64,000 nucleotides of DNA from the IMG/VR virus record IMGVR_UViG_3300021255_002737; one strand, given 5' to 3'. The translations under genes and the position numbers were made by a program. Within the stretch, counting starts at the first letter, position 1, and each line of letters opens with the position of its first letter. Shown piece after piece: positions 340 through 59,705 of the stretch. The DNA comes from a virus. The notes under the pieces were generated by a model. It was not told where the DNA came from. It did not search any database and worked only from the letters and a program-made list of their open reading frames with translations.

Positions 340-3300
340 CTAGCACACTTCCTTTACATCAACAATATCCATGTATTGTTTATTTTTCTTCATCATGAAC
401 TCATATGTCTTTCCCTGCTCAACAAAGAGCTTGTTACGTCCATACCGTGTTTTCCCATGCCCCCACAGGAATGGAGCAATAGAACCCTTGTAAGTGCCGT
501 AATCCTCTGTCTTGAACGTAACCAGTGCCATTTTGTTGCCGTTCTTCGTCGTGATCTCATGGACAGACGATGCTACACCACAGAGGACACCTGGAACCTT
601 AGAGAATGAGAACCCTAGTGTTGCAATCTCTCCTGCTGCTTTGTCGTAGTGTCCTTCCTTACATTCGACAAACTCTGCGTTGTTCCTTTTCTCTGTCCAT
701 TGGTTCGCCATCCGCAATGCCCGTGCCCTTTCCTTGTCGTTCACGGCTTTCTCATACCCATCTCGATAGAAGCCAATGCGCTCCCTGCATTGCTGTAACC
801 GTTTTACGTACTTCTTTGTATTCGACAGATTGCTCATCATCCATCCACGGGATTTATTGAGGAAGTCTAATGCTCCTGCCTGAATGAGTCCCTTAACGAC
901 ATCGCTGTTGTTGTGCTCGACAATGCTGTTCCAATCGGTTAAAGAGCAATAGTCGCAGTTCGTTTCCTCTTGAACAGATAAGGTTAATTCCTTGCCAACA
1001 CCCTTGATGTACGTAAGACCGACACGAATGGCTTCGCCCTCAATCTGCCATTCCTTGTTCCCCTTAGAGAAATCAGGAGGAAGAATCCTGATACCCATTT
1101 CCTTGCAATTCGCAAGATACGGAATGACCTTTTCCTGATTATCATTCTTCGTGTTCAGCAATGCACACATGAACTGAGCAGGGTAATGCGCCTTGAGATA
1201 CGCTGTCTTATACGAGAGCCGCCCATAGGCTACAGAGTGAGAATTACATACAATAATTCCATTGCCAGTTACGAAGTTATGGTATGGATTGTCCATTTCA
1301 ACGTCGTAGCACATCTCATCGCACTCATGGGTAATGGATGCTACGCTCTCGATATGTGTATCCAATACGTCAGACACATATACGCTGTCTCCTACGGATA
1401 ACTCTACCAATAGCCTTGTTCCATGTGGTGTCGGAATCTTATGGTTCAACGTACACCTCACTCGTTTGCCCAATTCAGTCTCAAGGATAAACACAGGCAT
1501 GACACCAGACTCTCTAACGTCAACGATATAATTCTCTACTATCTTGCCATCGTTATCCATTGAGCAAGCCTTAATGCCATGAACACCCCACGGGTCAAGT
1601 TGGTGCTTGTTGTACTCGTCATCGTGGAAGAATCTGTACAGCTCACAGATAGACCGCTTTGTTTTTGCCCCTGTATGTGTGACAATATATTCACGGCCAC
1701 TCAAACATTTGTTGAACAAATACCTTCCTGCTGCCTTGATTTGCATACCGACCTTCTCTGCAATCTCCTTGGAATAGCCATTTTCCATACAGCGTGTGAT
1801 GAACTCCTTGACCGCAGCATCAATCTTTGTCATCTCCTTGCGTCCAATGACCTTCCGTAGCATATCCGCTTCGCCCAATGAGTACCCTGCCATCTTCATA
1901 GCAAGTTTCATGCACTGCTCCTGATAGACAATGACACCGAAGGTATTCTTCGTGACCTCTTTATATACATTACAGAGATAGTCTATAGTAGCACCATTCT
2001 TTCCGTCGATATATTGCTGCATCATCCCTGAATCAAGAGGGCCTGGTCGGTACAAAGCGACCAATGCCGCAACGTCATCAAAGCATGATACGTGCAATTC
2101 CTTGGCCACCTTACGCATACCAGGAGACTCCATCTGGAACACGCCATCGAGGTTGCCGTTGGAATACATTGCATATGCCTTTTCATTATCCATTGGGATG
2201 TCATCGAGATTCATGTCATTGCCGATGTACTTCATGCATTTGTCAATGAGGTCTAACGTATTGAGTCCAAGCAAATCCAGTTTAAGATTGCCACGCTGCT
2301 CCAGTTCATGGAAGTCGTAGCAGGCAATACGGATATATTCACGCTCTCCCGTAGCCTTGTTCTTGGTATTACACCCCTCTACAGGTGTATAGTTTACGAT
2401 GTCATCTGGGGTAACAAGGACAGCCGATGCGTGTATACCAACTTTGTCAATACGTCCACAGAAATGCTTTGCTACATCAATGAGTTCTGCTTTCTGCTCG
2501 TCGTTGAGTGAAATATGAGCAGCCTGTAAATCATCAATAGAAGACTCGACAAACTTCGATGCTGCAATCTTGAACTTCGGATTGTATTCCCATGACGGGT
2601 CAATCATAAGGCCACCCTGCTCTTCACAAGGAACCATAGGGGCATTGTCTTTGTACTTGTTGAAGAGTGCCTGCCATGCCTTTAGTACAGCTTCCTTGCC
2701 TGCGCTTGGCTTATCAGGGTCTTTTGTGTACCCCAGTGTTTGTACCTTGCAGACGTTGCCATACATCTCTTTGACGTGTTCAATGACACGTCCACGGTTT
2801 AATGTAGAGAGATCACTATCAACGTCCGCAGGGGACCTTCTTTCTCTATTGCAGAACCGAAAGAACTCCGTGTGATACTTTATCGGGTCAATCTTGTGGA
2901 TGCCCATGAGATAGCCAACGAGACATCCGGCGCTCGATCCTCTACCTTCCCCGATCGGGATATGCTGTTCCTTGCACCAACTCAACACAGACCAGATAAT
3001 CAGTAGATACTCAAGGTAATTCGTTGCTTCGAGGTCTTTCATCTCCATCTCAAAGCGTTCAGCGTATTCCTTGTACTTCCCTTTCGGCACAAGTTTCTTC
3101 CAGTGACTCCTACAGATTTCCCTTACCTTTCCCTTTGGATTAGAACAAGGATACTTTGGATAGTGACTACCAGAGTCGGGGATTGTGACGTTACATCTCT
3201 CTGCAATGCGAGATGTATTCTCGATACATTCCTCAATGACATCCTGTGGAATCCACCTTGTGTTCCGTATCTCGTCCTCTGACCAGATATAGTTCTCGTC

Positions 3301-3954
3301 ATCGTGATACTGGTTGCCGTTGATGCGAATCCAATGACTATGATATGGTTTGTCTTCTGGGATAGAGTAGTGAGCATCTGTTGTTACAACAAGGGGAGCA
3401 TCGTATTTCCTTGCCAACTCAATGACTTTGTCGTTGTACTCCCATTGTTTTTCGATGTTGAGCGGCTGAATCTCTGCATAGAAGCGATCTCCAAATAGCT
3501 CTTTGTATTTCTTGAACCACTCTTCACCATTCTCTGTGTTGACAATAGATGCCATACATGCAGACAAACAAATGAGTCCATCGTTATGTTCCCGTAGGGC
3601 TTCCCAGTCAATTCTAGGCTTGTAGTAGTACGAATCCTCATTATACGCGAATGTATCGAGCTTCTTGAGGTTCATATATCCTTCATCGTTCATCGCAAGG
3701 ATGACTAAGTGATGCGTCAGTGACTTATCCCTAATGTTCACATCGGGACAGAAGTAGAACTCGCAGCCAACAATAGGCTTGATGTCGTTTTTCTGACACT
3801 CCTCGTAGAAGCGGATGGTATTCCGCATAGTACCATGGTCAGTTAGGGAGATTGCAGACATACCCAATGATTTTGCACGTGCTACCATTTCTTGTACAGT
3901 TTGATAACCATCAAGTAGACTACCATCGCTATGGTTATGTAGTGAGATATACAT
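340..3954 (-). CDS. dnaE: DNA polymerase III alpha subunit (DnaE-type replicase) carrying a mini-intein
   Basis: 1204-aa ORF. N-terminal PHP motifs (SLHNHSDGSLLDG, TDHGTM, GCEFY). Conserved FNK/SHSVAYG motif (E. coli GFNKSHSAAYA) interrupted by 155 aa. AAGGAG ribosome-binding site upstream of the ATG. Confidence 0.9.
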   Translation of the reverse strand: MYISLHNHSDGSLLDGYQTVQEMVARAKSLGMSAISLTDHGTMRNTIRFYEECQKNDIKPIVGCEFYFCPDVNIRDKSLTHHLVILAMNDEGYMNLKKLDTFAYNEDSYYYKPRIDWEALREHNDGLICLSACMASIVNTENGEEWFKKYKELFGDRFYAEIQPLNIEKQWEYNDKVIELARKYDAPLVVTTDAHYSIPEDKPYHSHWIRINGNQYHDDENYIWSEDEIRNTRWIPQDVIEECIENTSRIAERCNVTIPDSGSHYPKYPCSNPKGKVREICRSHWKKLVPKGKYKEYAERFEMEMKDLEATNYLEYLLIIWSVLSWCKEQHIPIGEGRGSSAGCLVGYLMGIHKIDPIKYHTEFFRFCNRERRSPADVDSDLSTLNRGRVIEHVKEMYGNVCKVQTLGYTKDPDKPSAGKEAVLKAWQALFNKYKDNAPMVPCEEQGGLMIDPSWEYNPKFKIAASKFVESSIDDLQAAHISLNDEQKAELIDVAKHFCGRIDKVGIHASAVLVTPDDIVNYTPVEGCNTKNKATGEREYIRIACYDFHELEQRGNLKLDLLGLNTLDLIDKCMKYIGNDMNLDDIPMDNEKAYAMYSNGNLDGVFQMESPGMRKVAKELHVSCFDDVAALVALYRPGPLDSGMMQQYIDGKNGATIDYLCNVYKEVTKNTFGVIVYQEQCMKLAMKMAGYSLGEADMLRKVIGRKEMTKIDAAVKEFITRCMENGYSKEIAEKVGMQIKAAGRYLFNKCLSGREYIVTHTGAKTKRSICELYRFFHDDEYNKHQLDPWGVHGIKACSMDNDGKIVENYIVDVRESGVMPVFILETELGKRVRCTLNHKIPTPHGTRLLVELSVGDSVYVSDVLDTHIESVASITHECDEMCYDVEMDNPYHNFVTGNGIIVCNSHSVAYGRLSYKTAYLKAHYPAQFMCALLNTKNDNQEKVIPYLANCKEMGIRILPPDFSKGNKEWQIEGEAIRVGLTYIKGVGKELTLSVQEETNCDYCSLTDWNSIVEHNNSDVVKGLIQAGALDFLNKSRGWMMSNLSNTKKYVKRLQQCRERIGFYRDGYEKAVNDKERARALRMANQWTEKRNNAEFVECKEGHYDKAAGEIATLGFSFSKVPGVLCGVASSVHEITTKNGNKMALVTFKTEDYGTYKGSIAPFLWGHGKTRYGRNKLFVEQGKTYEFMMKKNKQYMDIVDVKEVC
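1243..1707 (-). other. Mini-intein (155 aa, no homing-endonuclease domain) inside DnaE
   Basis: Begins CLSGREYIV (block A Cys1). Contains TLNH (block B TxxH). Ends YHNFVTGNGIIVCN followed by +1 Ser. Removing it restores FNK-SHSVAYG. Confidence 0.8.
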
Positions 3955-40724: not shown

Positions 40725-40799
40725 TGGAGCTACCAGCAGGAATTGCACCCGCGTCCATGGTGTACAAGGCCATTGTTCTGCTTATTGAACTATGGTAGC
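40725..40799 (-). tRNA. tRNA-Thr (anticodon UGU), slightly non-canonical
   Basis: Manual cloverleaf: acceptor GCTACCA/TGGTAGC, D arm GTTC-AATAAGCA-GAAC, anticodon loop CTTGTAC, T arm GCGGG-TGCAATT-CCTGC, encoded CCA. Deviations: a 31-39 C/A mismatch and G at position 55. Confidence 0.6.
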
Positions 40800-40806
40800 A
40801 TGATGA

Positions 40807-40943
40807 AACCGTAGGATGGATTTGAACCACCATAAAGGAACAAGATGCGCTAGAAACACCTCGGTATGTACTTTCCTTGCTCTAGCCGTTGTGAAGGTCT
40901 TTACGTCATGGCATAATACCTTAACACATTGAGCTACTACGGT
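40807..40943 (-). ncRNA. Aberrant 137-nt tRNA-like gene with two helix insertions; distal 7-nt loop UUCUAGC (CUA)
   Basis: Acceptor ACCGTAG/CTACGGT. D stem GCTC/GAGC with a ~40-nt hairpin inserted in an otherwise AATGGCTA D loop. Stem AGGAA/TTCCT enclosing 32 nt that form CGAGGTGT-TTCTAGC-GCATCTTG. T arm GGTGG-TTCAAAT-CCATC. No encoded CCA. Confidence 0.5.
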
Positions 40944-41016
40944 ATGAAAACAGGAGCCGCCAACAAACGACTCCAGAGACTCGATTCCGCATTGTCGCGG
41001 ACGAGCTAAAAAGACA

Positions 41017-41046
41017 TGAAAAAGGAGTCGGCATTTTACCGACCCC
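41017..41046 (-). terminator. Rho-independent terminator after the Bro-N gene
   Basis: Minus strand: GGGTCGG-taaaatg-CCGACTC followed by CTTTTTC. Confidence 0.6.
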
Positions 41047-41747: not shown

Positions 41748-42523
41748 ATAACACCATACCTTTCAAAGAAACATTCCTTATTCTCGACAACAATCACAAG
41801 ACGTTAACCTTGCTTTTGCTATAAAATAACGGCGAGCGACAGGGAAGGAATGGTAAAACCTGTCAATGGGGAGCTACCCCGACTCGCCGGTATAAACAAA
41901 TAAACATAAAACTACACTGGAAAATAAGGTTTCCCTTTATGTCCTCATGTTCTGTGTTATTGTGTTACGAGCAATACAAGTCTGAGCAACGACTAGCAAC
42001 TTTCGCGCTTCTTGCACTAGGAGCTAACTCCCCTATGACTCGACAGGACTATGACCTGCATCTTTCATTCATCATTCAGAAATGATATGCTTTTTCTAAC
42101 CAATATTATGCAGATTGAACTACTCTACCTATCTACTTCCGTTATAGCTGCGGTTAAACAGCGTCACTGCAATACCTGTTTGATTGGGTTTATACCTATG
42201 GTTAGACCATGTGAACCCAGACACATGATTTCATAGGCGACCGTATTGGTGCTTGCACAGGCCGGAAGGGACGGACACTACACTCGACATGATTCACACA
42301 TATCCCAACAAGATAAGCTCTTTGAACTCTCATCGGCATAATCGCTTACGTCAACTAATGAATGGTACAGGCTATCGTCTATATCATCCATTTCTCTTAA
42401 CAGGGATATTCTCAGCGGACTGACAATCCTCTGCACTGAGTTATCTTCCAGTACAGTTTTATGTCTATTTATAATGGTGGGGATGGTTTAATTGGACACA
42501 TCCCCATAAAAATAAAATATTAC
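41748..42523. ncRNA. Candidate large structured non-coding RNA region (776 nt, no ORF) next to the tRNA genes
   Basis: Dense local hairpins, including a three-way junction at 41830-41889 (CGGCGAG/CTCGCCG enclosing ACAGG/CCTGT and GGGG/CCCC). Confidence 0.35.
41790..41818 (-). promoter_or_regulatory. Shared operator/promoter box upstream of an antirepressor gene, copy 1
   Basis: CAATCACAAGACGTTAACCTTGCTTTTGC; 28 of 29 positions identical to 43139..43167. Confidence 0.5.
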
Positions 42524-57963: not shown

Positions 57964-58154
57964 TGGAAAGCCTCCTGTTCTACAATTTGAGTCTTGGTTA
58001 CTTCATGGATTTTATATCGGACTAAAGGGTGTTTGCCGTGTAATTCCGACGCCTTTTCCATTGCAGCGGCAACGGTAGAGCGCATTGCCCACACGTTGCC
58101 ATGACTGTCTGCAATGAGATATGCCTTAATCGACAACACCGAAGTCCTTTGCAT
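57960..58154 (-). CDS. Hypothetical small protein
   Basis: 64-aa ORF. Confidence 0.5.
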   Translation of the reverse strand: MQRTSVLSIKAYLIADSHGNVWAMRSTVAAAMEKASELHGKHPLVRYKIHEVTKTQIVEQEAFH

Positions 58155-58746
58155 ATGGCAGGGTTTTCACCATGTCACAGAATACATGCCAATGAGGGAG
58201 TCTATGGTTCTTGCGCTGTCTGTAAATGGTTTTCAGCTGCAAGTAATTTGTGGAAACCCTTGCGGTCAGATTGAGTCCAACAGGACAAGACAAAAGAAGT
58301 TTAAGATATGCTTTCTTGGCTGCTTTTGTTGTCTTTTCGTTCCCTGTCTGTTTTGCAATCTCTTGTTTGACAAGGTAATCATTCTGTAATTCCATCATGA
58401 TGTCAACCATTCGATTGTCTACGGATTCATCCATACATGTTCTAATGTCCATTTTGGAGAGTCTATGCATAGTGGACTGGGAAGATACAATGTCGAACCA
58501 ATGGTATCGTTCTGCTTCCGTCCAGACTTTAACAGGAGCTTTCAGATCAAACTGCACAATGATTCCTTTTAATGCACAGTCATGCCCTGAACCAGCAGGT
58601 GAAGAACCGAGTCTTGTCATGCGGAGAATATCCTTGTCTGTACATTCATTGGACCTTGGCTCATTGGACTTCATAGGAAATCCCGATGCAGCACAGGATT
58701 CATTCAGACCATATACGTGTATATTCTTGACTTCTAACAATGTCAT
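58126..58746 (-). CDS. Hypothetical protein with weak ThyX-like features
   Basis: 206 aa. ERYHWFDIVSSQSTMHRL aligns loosely with the ThyX RHRxxSxxxxSxRY box, but the Arg/His residues are not conserved. Confidence 0.3.
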   Translation of the reverse strand: MTLLEVKNIHVYGLNESCAASGFPMKSNEPRSNECTDKDILRMTRLGSSPAGSGHDCALKGIIVQFDLKAPVKVWTEAERYHWFDIVSSQSTMHRLSKMDIRTCMDESVDNRMVDIMMELQNDYLVKQEIAKQTGNEKTTKAAKKAYLKLLLSCPVGLNLTARVSTNYLQLKTIYRQRKNHRLPHWHVFCDMVKTLPYAKDFGVVD

Positions 58747-59705
58747 TCCCCTTTCTTCATCTGATACTCTGGGTTGATAACCTTGAAGGAAAAGCGATTG
58801 CCTGGGAAACCTTGCAGCCCTTCAATGGGTTCAATCGGACGGATTACAATGCCCTCTCTAGGGAAATTGCCAAAGGTACTATTGCCGATTGCCATCTTCA
58901 CTAATTCGTCAATATTGTCAGTCAGGGCAAACTCATTGACAATCGGAACCGTGTCAACGTTGTGGAAACCAAGGAATACATCCATAGTATCCTGGTCGAA
59001 ATATCCATGCTTGGCGATGTCATACACTGAGAAAACATAGATATGATGCTCAGGTAAATGCAGGTGGTTGCCCTGTTGTTTTGGCCCGACAAATTCACCC
59101 TGAATAGCAATGTCTTTATCCAGATTGGAAATGAAATCAAGGAGCCCCTGTTTCTCTGCTGTTCTGAACATGGGAGACGTATTGTCTACTTCACGTTTCC
59201 TTGTACAGACACCAATATGGCCTTTGCTGCGGAAAATCGTACAGGATGAACCGTCGAGCTTTTCAGTAGCATAACAGGGAACGCCTTTGTACTTCGTGAG
59301 CAGTTCTGGAATATTCTGTGCTCGTACTTCGTCTGTCTTAGGAATGTACCAAGGGAAAGCACCGACGGTATCCATTGGCTGTTCTGGGGGTTCATATTTT
59401 ACAATGCCAAGTTCCTTTGTCATATCCGTGCCAACAGGTGCACCTCCGTGATATTCCAGTGCAATGCCCTGAGAATATACACCGCGAATCTTCTGGAGTT
59501 TGATATGGGATTTACCTTTGAGAAAAGCAAAGGTCTCATTCTTCGGACAAATACTGTCTGTCTCAATGTAGATAACCTTGTCCCCAACATGGTATCCTTT
59601 GGGAACAACACATTGAAAACCTTCGATATGTGCCAATTCAATACGGTCTGCATTTTCAATCGGTGTAAGGTTACGGATTACCTGTACAGATGCCAATTTT
59701 CTCAA
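58743..59705 (-). CDS. RNA ligase (nucleotidyltransferase with N-terminal OB-like domain)
   Basis: Motif I ATEKLDGSS. N-terminus KLASVQVIRNLTPIENADRIELAHIEGF is typical of the DRB0094-type family. Confidence 0.7.
   Translation of the reverse strand: MRKLASVQVIRNLTPIENADRIELAHIEGFQCVVPKGYHVGDKVIYIETDSICPKNETFAFLKGKSHIKLQKIRGVYSQGIALEYHGGAPVGTDMTKELGIVKYEPPEQPMDTVGAFPWYIPKTDEVRAQNIPELLTKYKGVPCYATEKLDGSSCTIFRSKGHIGVCTRKREVDNTSPMFRTAEKQGLLDFISNLDKDIAIQGEFVGPKQQGNHLHLPEHHIYVFSVYDIAKHGYFDQDTMDVFLGFHNVDTVPIVNEFALTDNIDELVKMAIGNSTFGNFPREGIVIRPIEPIEGLQGFPGNRFSFKVINPEYQMKKGE

What the first reader, a model, noticed from the sequence alone, without database searches (positions are those of the whole stretch)
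40807..40943. tRNA-like gene with two helix insertions and a CUA (amber-reading) loop
Directly upstream of a fairly normal tRNA-Thr lies a 137-nt sequence with several canonical tRNA parts:
- A perfect 7-bp acceptor stem.
- U8/A9.
- D stem GCUC/GAGC.
- A canonical T arm (GGUGG-UUCAAAU-CCAUC).
- A 4-nt variable loop.

Two features are not canonical:
- The D loop would read AAUGGCUA if a ~40-nt hairpin (UGUUAAGGU...ACCUUCACA) were removed.
- The anticodon stem AGGAA/UUCCU encloses 32 nt. These comprise a 9-nt bulge plus an 8-bp helix capped by the 7-nt loop UUCUAGC, which has U33, CUA at positions 34-36 and a purine at 37.

This is neither a standard tRNA nor a known bacterial intron type, since tRNA group I introns are more than 200 nt. 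Possibilities are a suppressor tRNA precursor needing unknown processing, a tRNA mimic or decoy (for example against anticodon nucleases or tRNA-targeting defences), or a decayed pseudogene.

The perfect preservation of all four canonical stems argues against simple decay.
Basis: partly seen in the sequence, partly recalled or inferred. Interest (0 to 1): 0.7.

Follow-up and report, generated by a model that had tools for sequence, protein, structure and literature searches.

The report
Ornamented non-decoding tRNA mimic in phage
The 137-nt sequence is a real, evolutionarily conserved tRNA-shaped RNA gene of a gut phage. It keeps the tRNA "top half" but carries an extra D-loop helix and a rebuilt arm in place of an anticodon arm, so it is a tRNA mimic of unknown job, not an amber suppressor.

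Summary
On the minus strand (40943..40807), 7 nt upstream of tRNA-Thr(UGU), lies a 137-nt tRNA frame:
- It scores 35.8 bits on the Rfam tRNA model (curated cut-off 29).
- It carries a 40-nt hairpin in the D loop.
- Its anticodon stem encloses 32 nt.

I found 36 distinct relatives in Mitsuokella-type gut phages and prophages. Across them:
- The acceptor, D and T stems covary (99% paired; 7 of 16 pairs compensatory).
- All tRNA tertiary-contact nucleotides are kept.
- The D-loop hairpin (absent, short or long) and the distal arm helix also covary.

The anticodon reading fails:
- The distal loop is 4-9 nt and varies in sequence; CUA occurs in one subtype only.
- Some paralogs have no anticodon arm at all.
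- The phage uses the standard code with no interrupting TAG codons.
- None of the 36 mimics encodes CCA, whereas all 9 neighbouring canonical tRNAs do.

Best reading: a selected, non-decoding tRNA mimic, co-transcribed and co-processed with tRNAs. It most likely acts through its acceptor/T-arm/elbow as a decoy or scaffold. That function is inferred, not shown.

Rfam has no specific family and I found no paper describing this architecture, so I rate it a new variant of a known kind.

The parts
40807..40943 (-). Whole tRNA-like gene (137 nt; RNA 5' end at 40943)
   Evidence: Rfam tRNA model 35.8 bits, E 6e-6. The MFE fold gives a cloverleaf plus 2 extra helices. 36 homologs.
40937..40943 (-). 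Acceptor stem, 5' strand (ACCGUAG). It pairs with 40808-40814 (CUACGGU). The discriminator U is at 40807.
   Evidence: 7 of 7 pairs. In the family 99% of cells are paired and 3 of 7 pairs have changes on both sides.
40879..40934 (-). D arm: stem GCUC (40931-40934) / GAGC (40879-40882). The loop is AAU + 40-nt hairpin + GGCUA, where the GG at 40886-40887 corresponds to G18 G19.
   Evidence: D stem 100% paired in 36 sequences. A14, A15, GG and A21 are invariant or nearly so.
40888..40927 (-). Long D-loop hairpin module, inserted at tRNA positions 16/17. Base GUG..CAC, middle helix AAGGU/ACCUU, inner helix UUAUG/CGUAA, apical loop CCAUGA.
   Evidence: Replaced by a single U in L002/L005/L212/L229. 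Present with covarying helices in L201, L269, L228, L205, L213 and L206: 5 compensatory pairs.
40836..40877 (-). Rebuilt 'anticodon' arm: proximal stem AGGAA (40873-40877) / UUCCU (40836-40840), bulge, distal hairpin.
   Evidence: Arm architecture compared across the family.
40864..40872 (-). 9-nt 5'-side bulge AGUACAUAC (family consensus AGUACGUAC)
   Evidence: Invariant AGUACGUAC in all other sequences of arm types 1-3 while the flanking helices vary. The window copy has one G-to-A change.
40841..40863 (-). Distal 8-bp helix CGAGGUGU/GCAUCUUG capped by the loop UUCUAGC (40849-40855), the supposed CUA anticodon loop
   Evidence: The helix covaries: 3 of 6 aligned pairs are compensatory. The loop is not conserved in length (4-9 nt) or sequence.
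40815..40831 (-). T arm GGUGG-UUCAAAU-CCAUC
   Evidence: 3 of 5 stem pairs are compensatory across the family; the loop UUCRANU is conserved.
40725..40806 (-). 7-nt spacer (40800-40806), then canonical tRNA-Thr(UGU) with encoded CCA (40725-40799)
   Evidence: ARAGORN. Rfam 57.2 bits. The same arrangement occurs in the relatives whose downstream tRNA was typed.
40944..41020 (-). Conserved upstream leader (UUAGCUCGUCCGCRACAAUGCGGAAUCGAGUC...) ending in the hairpin GGAGUCG..CGGCUCC (40953-40974)
   Evidence: Conserved in L003, L004 and L218 with compensatory changes in the hairpin. Flagged as terminator-like in the window. Its role is unknown.
41907..42464 (-). ROOL RNA (context only). It occupies the slot that in relatives holds tRNA-Gln plus a second tRNA-like gene.
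   Evidence: Rfam RF03087, 214.8 bits. The flanking sequences are homologous to those flanking tRNA-Gln + b-type in L002/L005. No ROOL was found in 25 related loci.

Best explanation
The element is a gene for a non-decoding tRNA mimic. It belongs to a small family of 'ornamented' tRNA-like RNAs carried by siphovirus-like phages and prophages of Mitsuokella-type gut bacteria.

Shown:
- It keeps the tRNA frame: acceptor stem, D stem, T arm, and the nucleotides that build the L-shaped elbow.
- That frame is under purifying selection for structure.
- The anticodon arm has been replaced by a variable arm (proximal stem, conserved bulge, covarying distal hairpin). In some paralogs it is deleted.
- A structured hairpin module, which may be absent, short or long, sits in the D loop at positions 16/17.

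Inferred from gene arrangement and established tRNA-processing rules:
- It is transcribed in one precursor with tRNA-Thr.
- Its 5' end is cut by RNase P.
- Because it lacks an encoded CCA, unlike its canonical neighbours, its 3' end is made by an RNase Z-type cut, possibly followed by CCA addition.

Inferred function (least certain): it cannot decode, and the conserved part is the acceptor/T-arm/elbow. It therefore most likely acts as a stable decoy or scaffold for a factor that recognises the tRNA top half. Candidates are a host tRNA-targeting defence or toxin enzyme, or a tRNA-processing enzyme. The peripheral helices and the conserved bulge would add specificity.
For: tRNA frame:
- Rfam tRNA model 35.8 bits, above the cut-off of 29.
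- The MFE fold gives a cloverleaf plus two helices.

Family: 36 distinct sequences (alignment A4).
- The acceptor, D and T stems are 99.0% paired, against 31-51% when the partners are slid.
- 7 of 16 pairs have changes on both sides.
- The covariation score is 0.347, against 0.188 when shuffled.

Tertiary-contact positions are invariant or nearly so: U8, A14, A15 with U48, the GG of the D loop, A21, and the T loop UUCRA.

Extra helices:
- Short D hairpin: 100% paired, 3 of 5 pairs compensatory.
- Long D hairpin: 5 compensatory pairs; conserved base and a CAUG apical loop.
- Distal arm helix: 3 of 6 pairs compensatory.

Non-decoding:
- Distal loops are 4-9 nt and vary in sequence.
- Arm-less paralogs exist, such as L218 3677-3755.
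- The discriminator varies (U, G, C, A).
- The genome uses the standard code.

Processing context:
- Mimics lie 4-7 nt from canonical tRNAs.
- 0 of 36 mimics are followed by CCA, against 9 of 9 canonical tRNAs in the same loci.

tRNA-centred arms-race context: the phage encodes an RNA ligase at 59705..58743 (PF09414 2.5e-24, phrog_968 1.9e-58).

Precedents:
- Bacterial and phage YrlA tRNA mimics are RNase P and CCA-adding substrates (PMC4201824).
- Phage tRNAs can neutralise tRNA-cleaving defences (PMC11464382, title and abstract only).
Against: - There is no expression, processing or binding data.
- The decoy or scaffold role is inference only, and no partner protein was identified. The adjacent conserved 98-aa protein has no recognisable fold.
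- The family is confined to one phage group, so much of the covariation comes from a few lineages and from paralogs. The shuffle control is not a probability.
- The window copy carries a unique G-to-A change in the otherwise invariant bulge, which could mean relaxed constraint in this particular copy.
- The arm and D-hairpin modules are gained, lost and swapped freely. That also fits weak constraint on everything except the tRNA frame.
Confidence: 0.6

Rival explanations
1. Cis-acting processing or stability element. The tRNA-shaped fold serves only as an RNase P/RNase Z cleavage signal ('punctuation') that matures the neighbouring tRNA-Thr and/or trims and stabilises the transcript running into the packaging genes. 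The released RNA itself has no trans function.
For: - It always abuts a canonical tRNA by 4-7 nt.
- It lies in the leader of the 98-aa/terS/TerL operon.
- Only the acceptor/T/D frame, which is the RNase P determinant, is universally conserved, and the arm can be deleted.
- A 7-bp acceptor stem is the key RNase P determinant (PMC4201824).
Against: - Canonical tRNAs already provide such signals.
- It does not explain the invariant 9-nt bulge, the covarying D-loop hairpins with a conserved CAUG loop, or the maintenance of 2-3 paralogs per genome.
Confidence: 0.2
2. Decaying tRNA pseudogene. It would be a former tRNA that lost its anticodon arm, accumulates insertions, and is tolerated because it is harmless.
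For: - The arm and D-loop content is highly variable, with indels and module swaps.
- The window copy has a private substitution in the bulge.
- ARAGORN does not call it at default settings.
Against: - 99% of stem cells are paired across 36 distinct sequences, with compensatory changes in all three canonical stems.
- The inserted helices themselves covary.
- The tertiary-contact nucleotides are invariant.
Confidence: 0.1
3. Self-associating RNA. Palindromic single-stranded motifs would let the mimic dimerise or assemble, functionally akin to the ROOL RNA that replaces a tRNA + mimic pair in this window. The motifs are the bulge GUACGUAC or GCAUAUGC, the D-hairpin loop CAUG, and the distal loops CUAG or UUCGCGAA.
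For: - Two different perfect 8-nt palindromes sit at the homologous bulge position, differing by symmetric double changes.
- ROOL occupies the tRNA-Gln + b-type slot between homologous flanks.
- ROOL forms homo-oligomeric cages (PMC12286853).
Against: - Arm type 5 has no palindrome.
- The window copy breaks the palindrome.
- Apical palindromes are expected at hairpin tips: type 4's loop GUGCAC becomes a hairpin in type 5.
- A 2-bp mini-hairpin or a DNA-level palindrome explains the same data.
Confidence: 0.07
4. Amber-suppressor tRNA, or a precursor that needs removal of two intervening sequences (the first reader's lead option; ARAGORN's low-threshold 'tRNA-Pyl (cta) with intron').
For: - The loop UUCUAGC has U33, CUA and a purine at 37 in the window.
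- ARAGORN at -ps80 -i reports the anticodon cta.
- The phage encodes an RNA ligase that could in principle reseal RNA.
Against: - CUA is absent from orthologs at the same locus, whose loops are 4-9 nt.
- L229 has C at position 33.
- Arm-less paralogs exist.
- A 13-bp arm with a 9-nt bulge puts the loop far beyond tRNA geometry.
- Removing any single block does not leave a 7-nt anticodon loop.
- There is no group I intron or other ribozyme hit.
- There is no TAG recoding: 95% of the window is covered by standard-code ORFs, and TAG ends 3 of 55 long ORFs.
- The inserted helices are conserved as structures rather than as excisable junk.
Confidence: 0.03

Closest known systems
Canonical bacterial/phage tRNA (Rfam RF00005)
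   Same: - 7-bp acceptor stem, U8, 4-bp D stem, GG in the D loop, T arm with UUCRA, and the A15-U48 pair.
- Sits in a phage tRNA cluster.
- Passes the Rfam cut-off.
   Different: - 137 nt long.
- 40-nt helix in the D loop.
- No 5-bp stem with a 7-nt anticodon loop at the standard distance.
- No conserved anticodon.
- No encoded CCA, although the neighbouring tRNAs have it.
- Not called by ARAGORN.
YrlA / bacterial Y RNAs (tRNA mimics; Chen et al. 2014, PMC4201824)
   Same: - Non-decoding RNA with a tRNA-like D arm, T arm and acceptor stem.
- Conserved tertiary pairs, including 15:48.
- Also found in phages.
- Some are RNase P and CCA-adding substrates.
   Different: - In YrlA the RNA ends lie in the Ro60-binding stem that replaces the anticodon arm, and the acceptor is closed by a loop. 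Here the ends lie in the acceptor stem, as in a tRNA.
- No YrlA hit was found in Rfam.
- No Ro60 gene was seen among the ORFs scanned.
Phage T4 species 1 and 2 RNAs (rnaC, rnaD)
   Same: - Small stable RNAs of 139 and 119 nt, of unknown function.
- Encoded inside the T4 tRNA cluster directly after tRNA-Arg.
- rnaC has a T-arm-like hairpin CCGGG-UUCGAAU-CCCGG and terminal pairing.
   Different: - No sequence homology.
- rnaC reaches only 17.5 bits on a tRNA-type model (cut-off 47), and rnaD gives no hit.
- The present family is a full cloverleaf frame.
Intron-containing tRNAs (bacterial group I introns; archaeal BHB introns, including D-loop positions)
   Same: Extra sequence interrupts the D loop and the anticodon region of a tRNA frame.
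   Different: - The inserts are 40 and ~25-32 nt, with no group I core (no Rfam hit).
- No bulge-helix-bulge geometry is seen on inspection.
- Removal does not restore an anticodon loop.
- The inserts are conserved as helices.
- The host is bacterial.
ROOL/GOLLD RNAs of phage tRNA islands
   Same: - Same genomic niche.
- In this window ROOL fills the slot that relatives use for tRNA-Gln plus a tRNA mimic.
- Function unknown.
   Different: - ROOL is ~560 nt with no tRNA frame.
- ROOL was found in none of the 25 related loci searched.

Membership tests
tRNA (RF00005) | Score at or above the curated Rfam cut-off with a full-length match | tested here: met
   35.8 bits against a cut-off of 29, model positions 1-71, with 44-nt and 32-nt insertions. 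The hit was not reported in the whole-window gathering scan.
tRNA (RF00005) | Four cloverleaf stems kept by covariation, plus conserved tertiary-contact nucleotides | tested here: met
   Three stems (acceptor, D, T) were counted: 99% paired, 7 of 16 pairs compensatory. The proximal stem of the arm is conserved in sequence and was not counted. U8, A14, A15/U48, GG, A21 and UUCRA are conserved.
tRNA (RF00005) | 5-bp anticodon stem with a 7-nt loop carrying a conserved anticodon; overall length about 70-95 nt | tested here: not met
   The stem encloses 32 nt. Family loops are 4-9 nt and not conserved, and the arm is absent in c-type paralogs.
tRNA (RF00005) | Called by a standard tRNA finder | tested here: not met
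   ARAGORN gives no call at default or -i settings. It calls the element only at -ps80, as 'tRNA-Pyl (cta) i(35,55)'. tRNAscan-SE is not available.
Amber suppressor tRNA of a recoded phage | CUA anticodon and U33 conserved among orthologs | tested here: not met
   CUA occurs only in arm type 1. L229 has UCCUAGU. Other types have UUCGCGA, UUCCU, AUCC, UUUUU or ACAUUCGC.
Amber suppressor tRNA of a recoded phage | In-frame TAG codons in phage genes (TAG reassigned) | tested here: not met
   Standard-code ORFs of 80 aa or more cover 95% of the window. TAG terminates 3 of 55 long ORFs, and read-through adds only 6-54 aa.
tRNA with group I intron | Group I intron core (over 200 nt) in the anticodon loop | tested here: not met
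   The inserts are 40 and 32 nt. No intron or ribozyme family appears in the permissive Rfam scan.
tRNA with archaeal-type (BHB) intron | Bulge-helix-bulge motif at the exon-intron junctions; a splicing endonuclease in the host | tested here: not met
   No 3-4-3 bulge-helix-bulge appears at either junction in the folds. This was judged by inspection only. The host lineage is bacterial (Mitsuokella). The endonuclease itself was not searched for.
YrlA / Y RNA | Match to the Rfam YrlA model; RNA termini in a Ro60-binding stem; an adjacent Ro60 (rsr) gene | tested here: not met
   No YrlA hit at E up to 10. The termini lie in the acceptor stem. No TROVE/Ro60 domain was found among the 30 ORFs scanned; not every ORF was scanned.
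tmRNA | tRNA-like domain plus a tag-peptide reading frame | tested here: not met
   ARAGORN finds no tmRNA. Only spurious permuted calls appear at -ps70.
T4-type small stable RNAs of tRNA clusters (rnaC/rnaD) | Homology to rnaC or rnaD | tested here: not met
   There is no similarity beyond a T-arm-like hairpin. rnaC scores 17.5 bits on the tRNA-Sec model. Only the location and the size are shared.
Functional tRNA mimic (processed by RNase P / RNase Z / CCA-adding enzyme) | Stable RNA with tRNA-type ends in vivo | not testable with these tools
   Needs small-RNA-seq, Northern blotting or in-vitro processing assays.

The most novel reading that the evidence does not exclude
Phage tRNA islands may carry a so far undescribed class of 'ornamented tRNA scaffolds'. 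These are L-shaped, non-decoding tRNA mimics whose D loop (positions 16/17) and anticodon arm are used as sockets for exchangeable structured modules.

In this family:
- The modules recombine between copies.
- They carry an invariant palindromic bulge (GUACGUAC or GCAUAUGC).
- The mimic plus tRNA cassette is interchangeable with ROOL RNA at the same locus.

The mimics would act in trans. One possibility is as decoys or sponges for host tRNA-targeting immunity or for tRNA-processing enzymes. The other is as self-associating RNAs.

The phenomenon appears to be wider than this family. One motif-restricted scan of IMG/VR gave 73 distinct tRNA frames of 85 nt or more, 14 of them with enlarged, hairpin-bearing D loops.
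Probability: 0.25. Interest if true: 0.78.

Novelty: new variant of a known kind. Interest (0 to 1): 0.52.

Why it matters
tRNA mimics are known from tmRNA, YrlA and plant-virus tRNA-like structures, and phages are known to carry tRNAs that counter tRNA-cleaving defences. A covarying phage family of this kind is not in Rfam 15, and I found it in none of the papers searched. It keeps the tRNA top half, discards decoding, and decorates the D loop and the arm with selected helices.

If the mimic is a decoy or scaffold, it points to a new layer of the phage-host conflict around tRNAs. It would also give a natural example of where a tRNA tolerates large structured insertions (positions 16/17 and the anticodon arm), which is useful for RNA engineering.

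The swap with ROOL at one locus offers a genetic handle on what phage tRNA-island cargo is for.

Practically, standard tRNA finders miss such genes, or miscall them as 'tRNA-Pyl/suppressor with intron' at low thresholds. That could mislead code-reassignment surveys.

Tried and rejected
- GenBank phage collection: megablast of the 2-kb region and sensitive blastn of the element found nothing.
- Genome-collection pattern scan: 45 hits, of which 44 were chance matches and only Mitsuokella multacida DSM 20544 was real; that locus was cut at its end.
- ROOL linkage: ROOL is present in the window only and was not found in 25 related loci. It is therefore not a constant partner.
- Antisense-target idea: the window holds no complement of 11 nt or more to the D hairpin or the arm, and 8-mers occur at chance level.
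- Thr-codon-in-bulge idea (ACG/ACA next to tRNA-Thr): arm types 4 and 5 lack any ACN codon there, so I dropped it.
- Terminator reading of the distal hairpin (flagged): the U-run is absent in the other arm types.
- Promoter scan: not above shuffled expectation.
- Neighbouring 98-aa protein as a candidate RNA partner: no Pfam hit, an AF2 model at pLDDT 79.7, and no PDB fold match below E = 0.3.
- T4 rnaC/rnaD homology: not supported.
- Intron-permissive ARAGORN: no call except at lowered thresholds.
- Covariance model of the family: not built. Any tRNA-shaped model would hit all tRNAs in the fetched loci and would not discriminate.
- Literature: nine full-text searches found general mentions of phage tRNA-like candidates (PMC10690425) but nothing describing this architecture.

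Full report
**1. The observation**

The element is on the minus strand, with its RNA 5' end at 40943 and 3' end at 40807. It reads:

ACCGUAG-UA-GCUC-AAU[40-nt hairpin]GGCUA-GAGC-A-AGGAA-[AGUACAUAC]-CGAGGUGU-UUCUAGC-GCAUCUUG-UUCCU-UUAU-GGUGG-UUCAAAU-CCAUC-CUACGGU-U

- A 7-nt spacer follows, then tRNA-Thr(UGU) with an encoded CCA (40799..40725).
- The Rfam tRNA model matches it end to end at 35.8 bits (cut-off 29, E = 6e-6). It treats 44 nt in the D loop and 32 nt in the anticodon loop as insertions.
- Unconstrained folding gives the same cloverleaf plus two extra helices (z = -2.7).
- ARAGORN does not call it at default or intron-permissive settings.

The description is therefore accurate.

**2. 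Context**

The window is a siphovirus-like phage. Its identified genes are:
- large terminase, portal, Bro-N/Ant-type regulators, PhoH and a PAPS-reductase-like protein;
- integrase, RadC, NrdD/NrdG, DNA polymerase III alpha and an RNA ligase.

A ROOL RNA lies about 960 nt upstream on the same strand (214.8 bits).

Standard-code ORFs cover 95% of the window, and TAG ends only 3 of 55 long ORFs. There is no stop-codon reassignment that would call for an amber suppressor.

**3. Relatives**

Three kinds of search together gave 36 distinct homologous tRNA-like sequences:
- large-terminase-based loci;
- DNA-pattern scans of viral, genome and metagenome collections;
- look-ups of the conserved downstream 98-aa protein.

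They come from human and animal gut assemblies and from a prophage of Mitsuokella multacida DSM 20544.

They occupy three positions in the same phage module:
- 'a-type' lies just 5' of tRNA-Thr. The window element is one of these.
- 'b-type' lies just 3' of tRNA-Gln.
- 'c-type' lies upstream of a-type and has no anticodon arm at all (GAGC-AAUUAUUGAU-AUGGG).

**4. What is conserved**

*The tRNA frame.*
- The acceptor, D and T stems are 99.0% paired across 36 distinct sequences.
- When the 3' partners are slid by 1-3 columns, only 31-51% are paired.
- 7 of 16 pairs show changes on both sides.
- The nucleotides that build the tRNA elbow and core are invariant or nearly so: U8, A14, A15 with U48, the D-loop GG, A21, and the T loop UUCRA.

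The RNA should therefore fold into a tRNA-like L-shape.

*The D-loop module.* It sits at tRNA positions 16/17 and comes in three states:
- Absent, giving a normal D loop (AAUUGGCUA in L002/L005/L212/L229; AAAUGGCUA in L178/L203/L218).
- Short, a 5-bp hairpin: GAUGG/CCAUC, GGUGG/CCACC, GGUAG/CUACC or UCUAG/CUAGA. It is 100% paired, with 3 of 5 pairs compensatory.
- Long, about 40-46 nt, as in the window, L201, L269, L228, L205, L213 and L206. It has a conserved base GUG..CAC, five compensatory pairs and a conserved CAUG in the apical loop.

*The arm.* In arm types 1-3 it consists of:
- a proximal stem (AGG/CCU core);
- an invariant 5'-side bulge AGUACGUAC;
- a distal helix with 3 of 6 pairs compensatory.

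The modules assort independently. L228, for example, combines the long hairpin of L205 with the arm of the window. That indicates recombination among copies.

**5. What is not conserved**

- *The supposed anticodon loop.* It is UUCUAGY or UCCUAGU in arm type 1. In the other types it is (A/G)UUCGCGA(G/A), UUCCU, AUCC, UUUUU, UUCUU or ACAUUCGC. Types 4 and 5 have entirely different arms.
- *Geometry.* A 13-bp arm with a 9-nt bulge places the loop well outside tRNA geometry. This rests on established tRNA structure.
- *The discriminator.* It varies (U, G, C, A).
- *CCA.* None of the 36 mimics is followed by CCA. All 9 canonical tRNAs found in the same loci are.

**6. Interpretation**

*Shown:* this is a selected, structured, non-decoding tRNA mimic that belongs to a gene family.

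*Inferred from arrangement and from known tRNA-processing rules:*
- It is co-transcribed with tRNA-Thr.
- RNase P cuts its 5' end. A 7-bp acceptor stem plus a T arm is the main RNase P determinant (PMC4201824).
- Its 3' end is made by an RNase Z-type cut, as for CCA-less precursors in Firmicutes-type systems (own knowledge).

*Inferred function:* the acceptor/T-arm/elbow is the only universally kept part, and the arm can be deleted. The RNA therefore most likely works through factors that read the tRNA top half, as a decoy, sponge or scaffold. The phage's own RNA ligase fits a conflict centred on tRNA damage, but it is 18 kb away and no link to the mimic has been shown.

*Rivals:* a purely cis-acting processing signal; a tolerated pseudogene, disfavoured by the covariation; a self-associating RNA; and the amber suppressor, which is essentially excluded.

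**7. ROOL**

In the window, ROOL lies between sequences homologous to those that flank 'tRNA-Gln + b-type mimic' in L002/L005 (coordinates). ROOL and the tRNA + mimic pair are therefore alternative cargo at one site. ROOL was not found in 25 related loci, so it is not a constant partner of the mimic.

**8. Wider phenomenon**

One scan of IMG/VR used the pattern GTAGCTCAA...GGTTCRARTCC with enlarged spacing.
- After filtering it gave 73 distinct tRNA frames of 85-198 nt with 6-7 acceptor pairs.
- A few of these span two tRNAs.
- Constrained folding finds enlarged, hairpin-bearing D loops in 14 of them, from unrelated phages.

Expanded tRNA frames thus seem common in phage tRNA islands.

A large survey has noted 'tRNA or tRNA-like' candidate RNAs in phages in general terms (PMC10690425). 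Rfam 15 has no specific family for this architecture, and I found no description of it.

**9. Comparison with known systems**

- The element passes the Rfam tRNA score but fails the defining anticodon-arm feature of a tRNA.
- It resembles YrlA in being a non-decoding tRNA mimic, but its topology is different.
- It shares location and size with T4 rnaC/rnaD, without homology.
- It is not an intron-containing tRNA.

I file it as a new variant of a known kind (tRNA mimic).

**10. Caveats**

- All inference about expression, processing and function is indirect.
- The family is phylogenetically narrow and includes paralogs, so the covariation counts are not independent events.
- The window copy has a private change in the conserved bulge.

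Noticed in passing
window 41907-42464 (-): ROOL RNA (RF03087, 214.8 bits). It occupies the slot that in related phages holds tRNA-Gln plus a second tRNA mimic, between homologous flanks and before the same terminator hairpin.
   Followed up: partly
window 58743-59705 (-), with neighbour 58126-58746 (-): Phage RNA ligase: PF09414 plus the PHA02142 OB domain, and phrog_968. Next to it is a 206-aa protein of unknown function (phrog_6721). Together they may be an RNA-repair module.
   Followed up: partly
window 340-3954 (-): DNA polymerase III alpha subunit with a weak intein-splicing-domain hit at residues 816-903 (below the Pfam cut-off).
   Followed up: no
window 40944-41020 (-): Conserved ~75-nt leader upstream of the mimic. 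It contains two hairpins, UCCGC..GCGGA and GGAGUCG..CGGCUCC, and the latter shows compensatory changes in L004/L218. It may be a tRNA relic, a promoter or attenuator, or a processing site.
   Followed up: partly
window 40725-40799 (-): The neighbouring tRNA-Thr(UGU) has the T loop UGCAAUU, with G at the nearly universal U55 position. The same variant occurs in L201 and L229.
   Followed up: no
L218 3677-3755 (also L178, L203, L224): A 79-nt tRNA-like gene with a perfect acceptor stem, a D arm with the short hairpin, and a T arm, but no anticodon arm.
   Followed up: partly
L010 782-914, L024 1132-1264, L035, L053: In unrelated phages, a 133-nt tRNA frame whose anticodon region contains what looks like a circularly permuted second tRNA: a T arm followed by a D arm.
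   Followed up: no
L006 2938-3072, L007 1114-1248, and L026/L063/L067/L077: A 133-135-nt tRNA frame (47.4 bits) with normal D and anticodon-like arms (loop CAUUUAA) and a ~65-nt variable arm. Further odd tRNA-like pieces follow it, before tRNA-Trp.
   Followed up: no
family bulge; window 40864-40872: The bulge of the rebuilt arm is a perfect 8-nt palindrome in two different versions, GUACGUAC and GCAUAUGC, which differ by symmetric changes. The window copy alone has GUACAUAC.
   Followed up: partly
L264, L265, L271, L272 (5' ends of the loci): Some relatives carry an IS605 OrfB/TnpB-type gene (Cas12f1-like TNB domain) a few kb upstream of the tRNA/mimic module.
   Followed up: no
L289 2909-3172 (phage T4 rnaC, rnaD): T4 species 1 RNA folds very stably (z = -4.6). 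It contains a T-arm-like hairpin and terminal pairing, yet fails tRNA models. It is a long-known and still unexplained analogue.
   Followed up: partly
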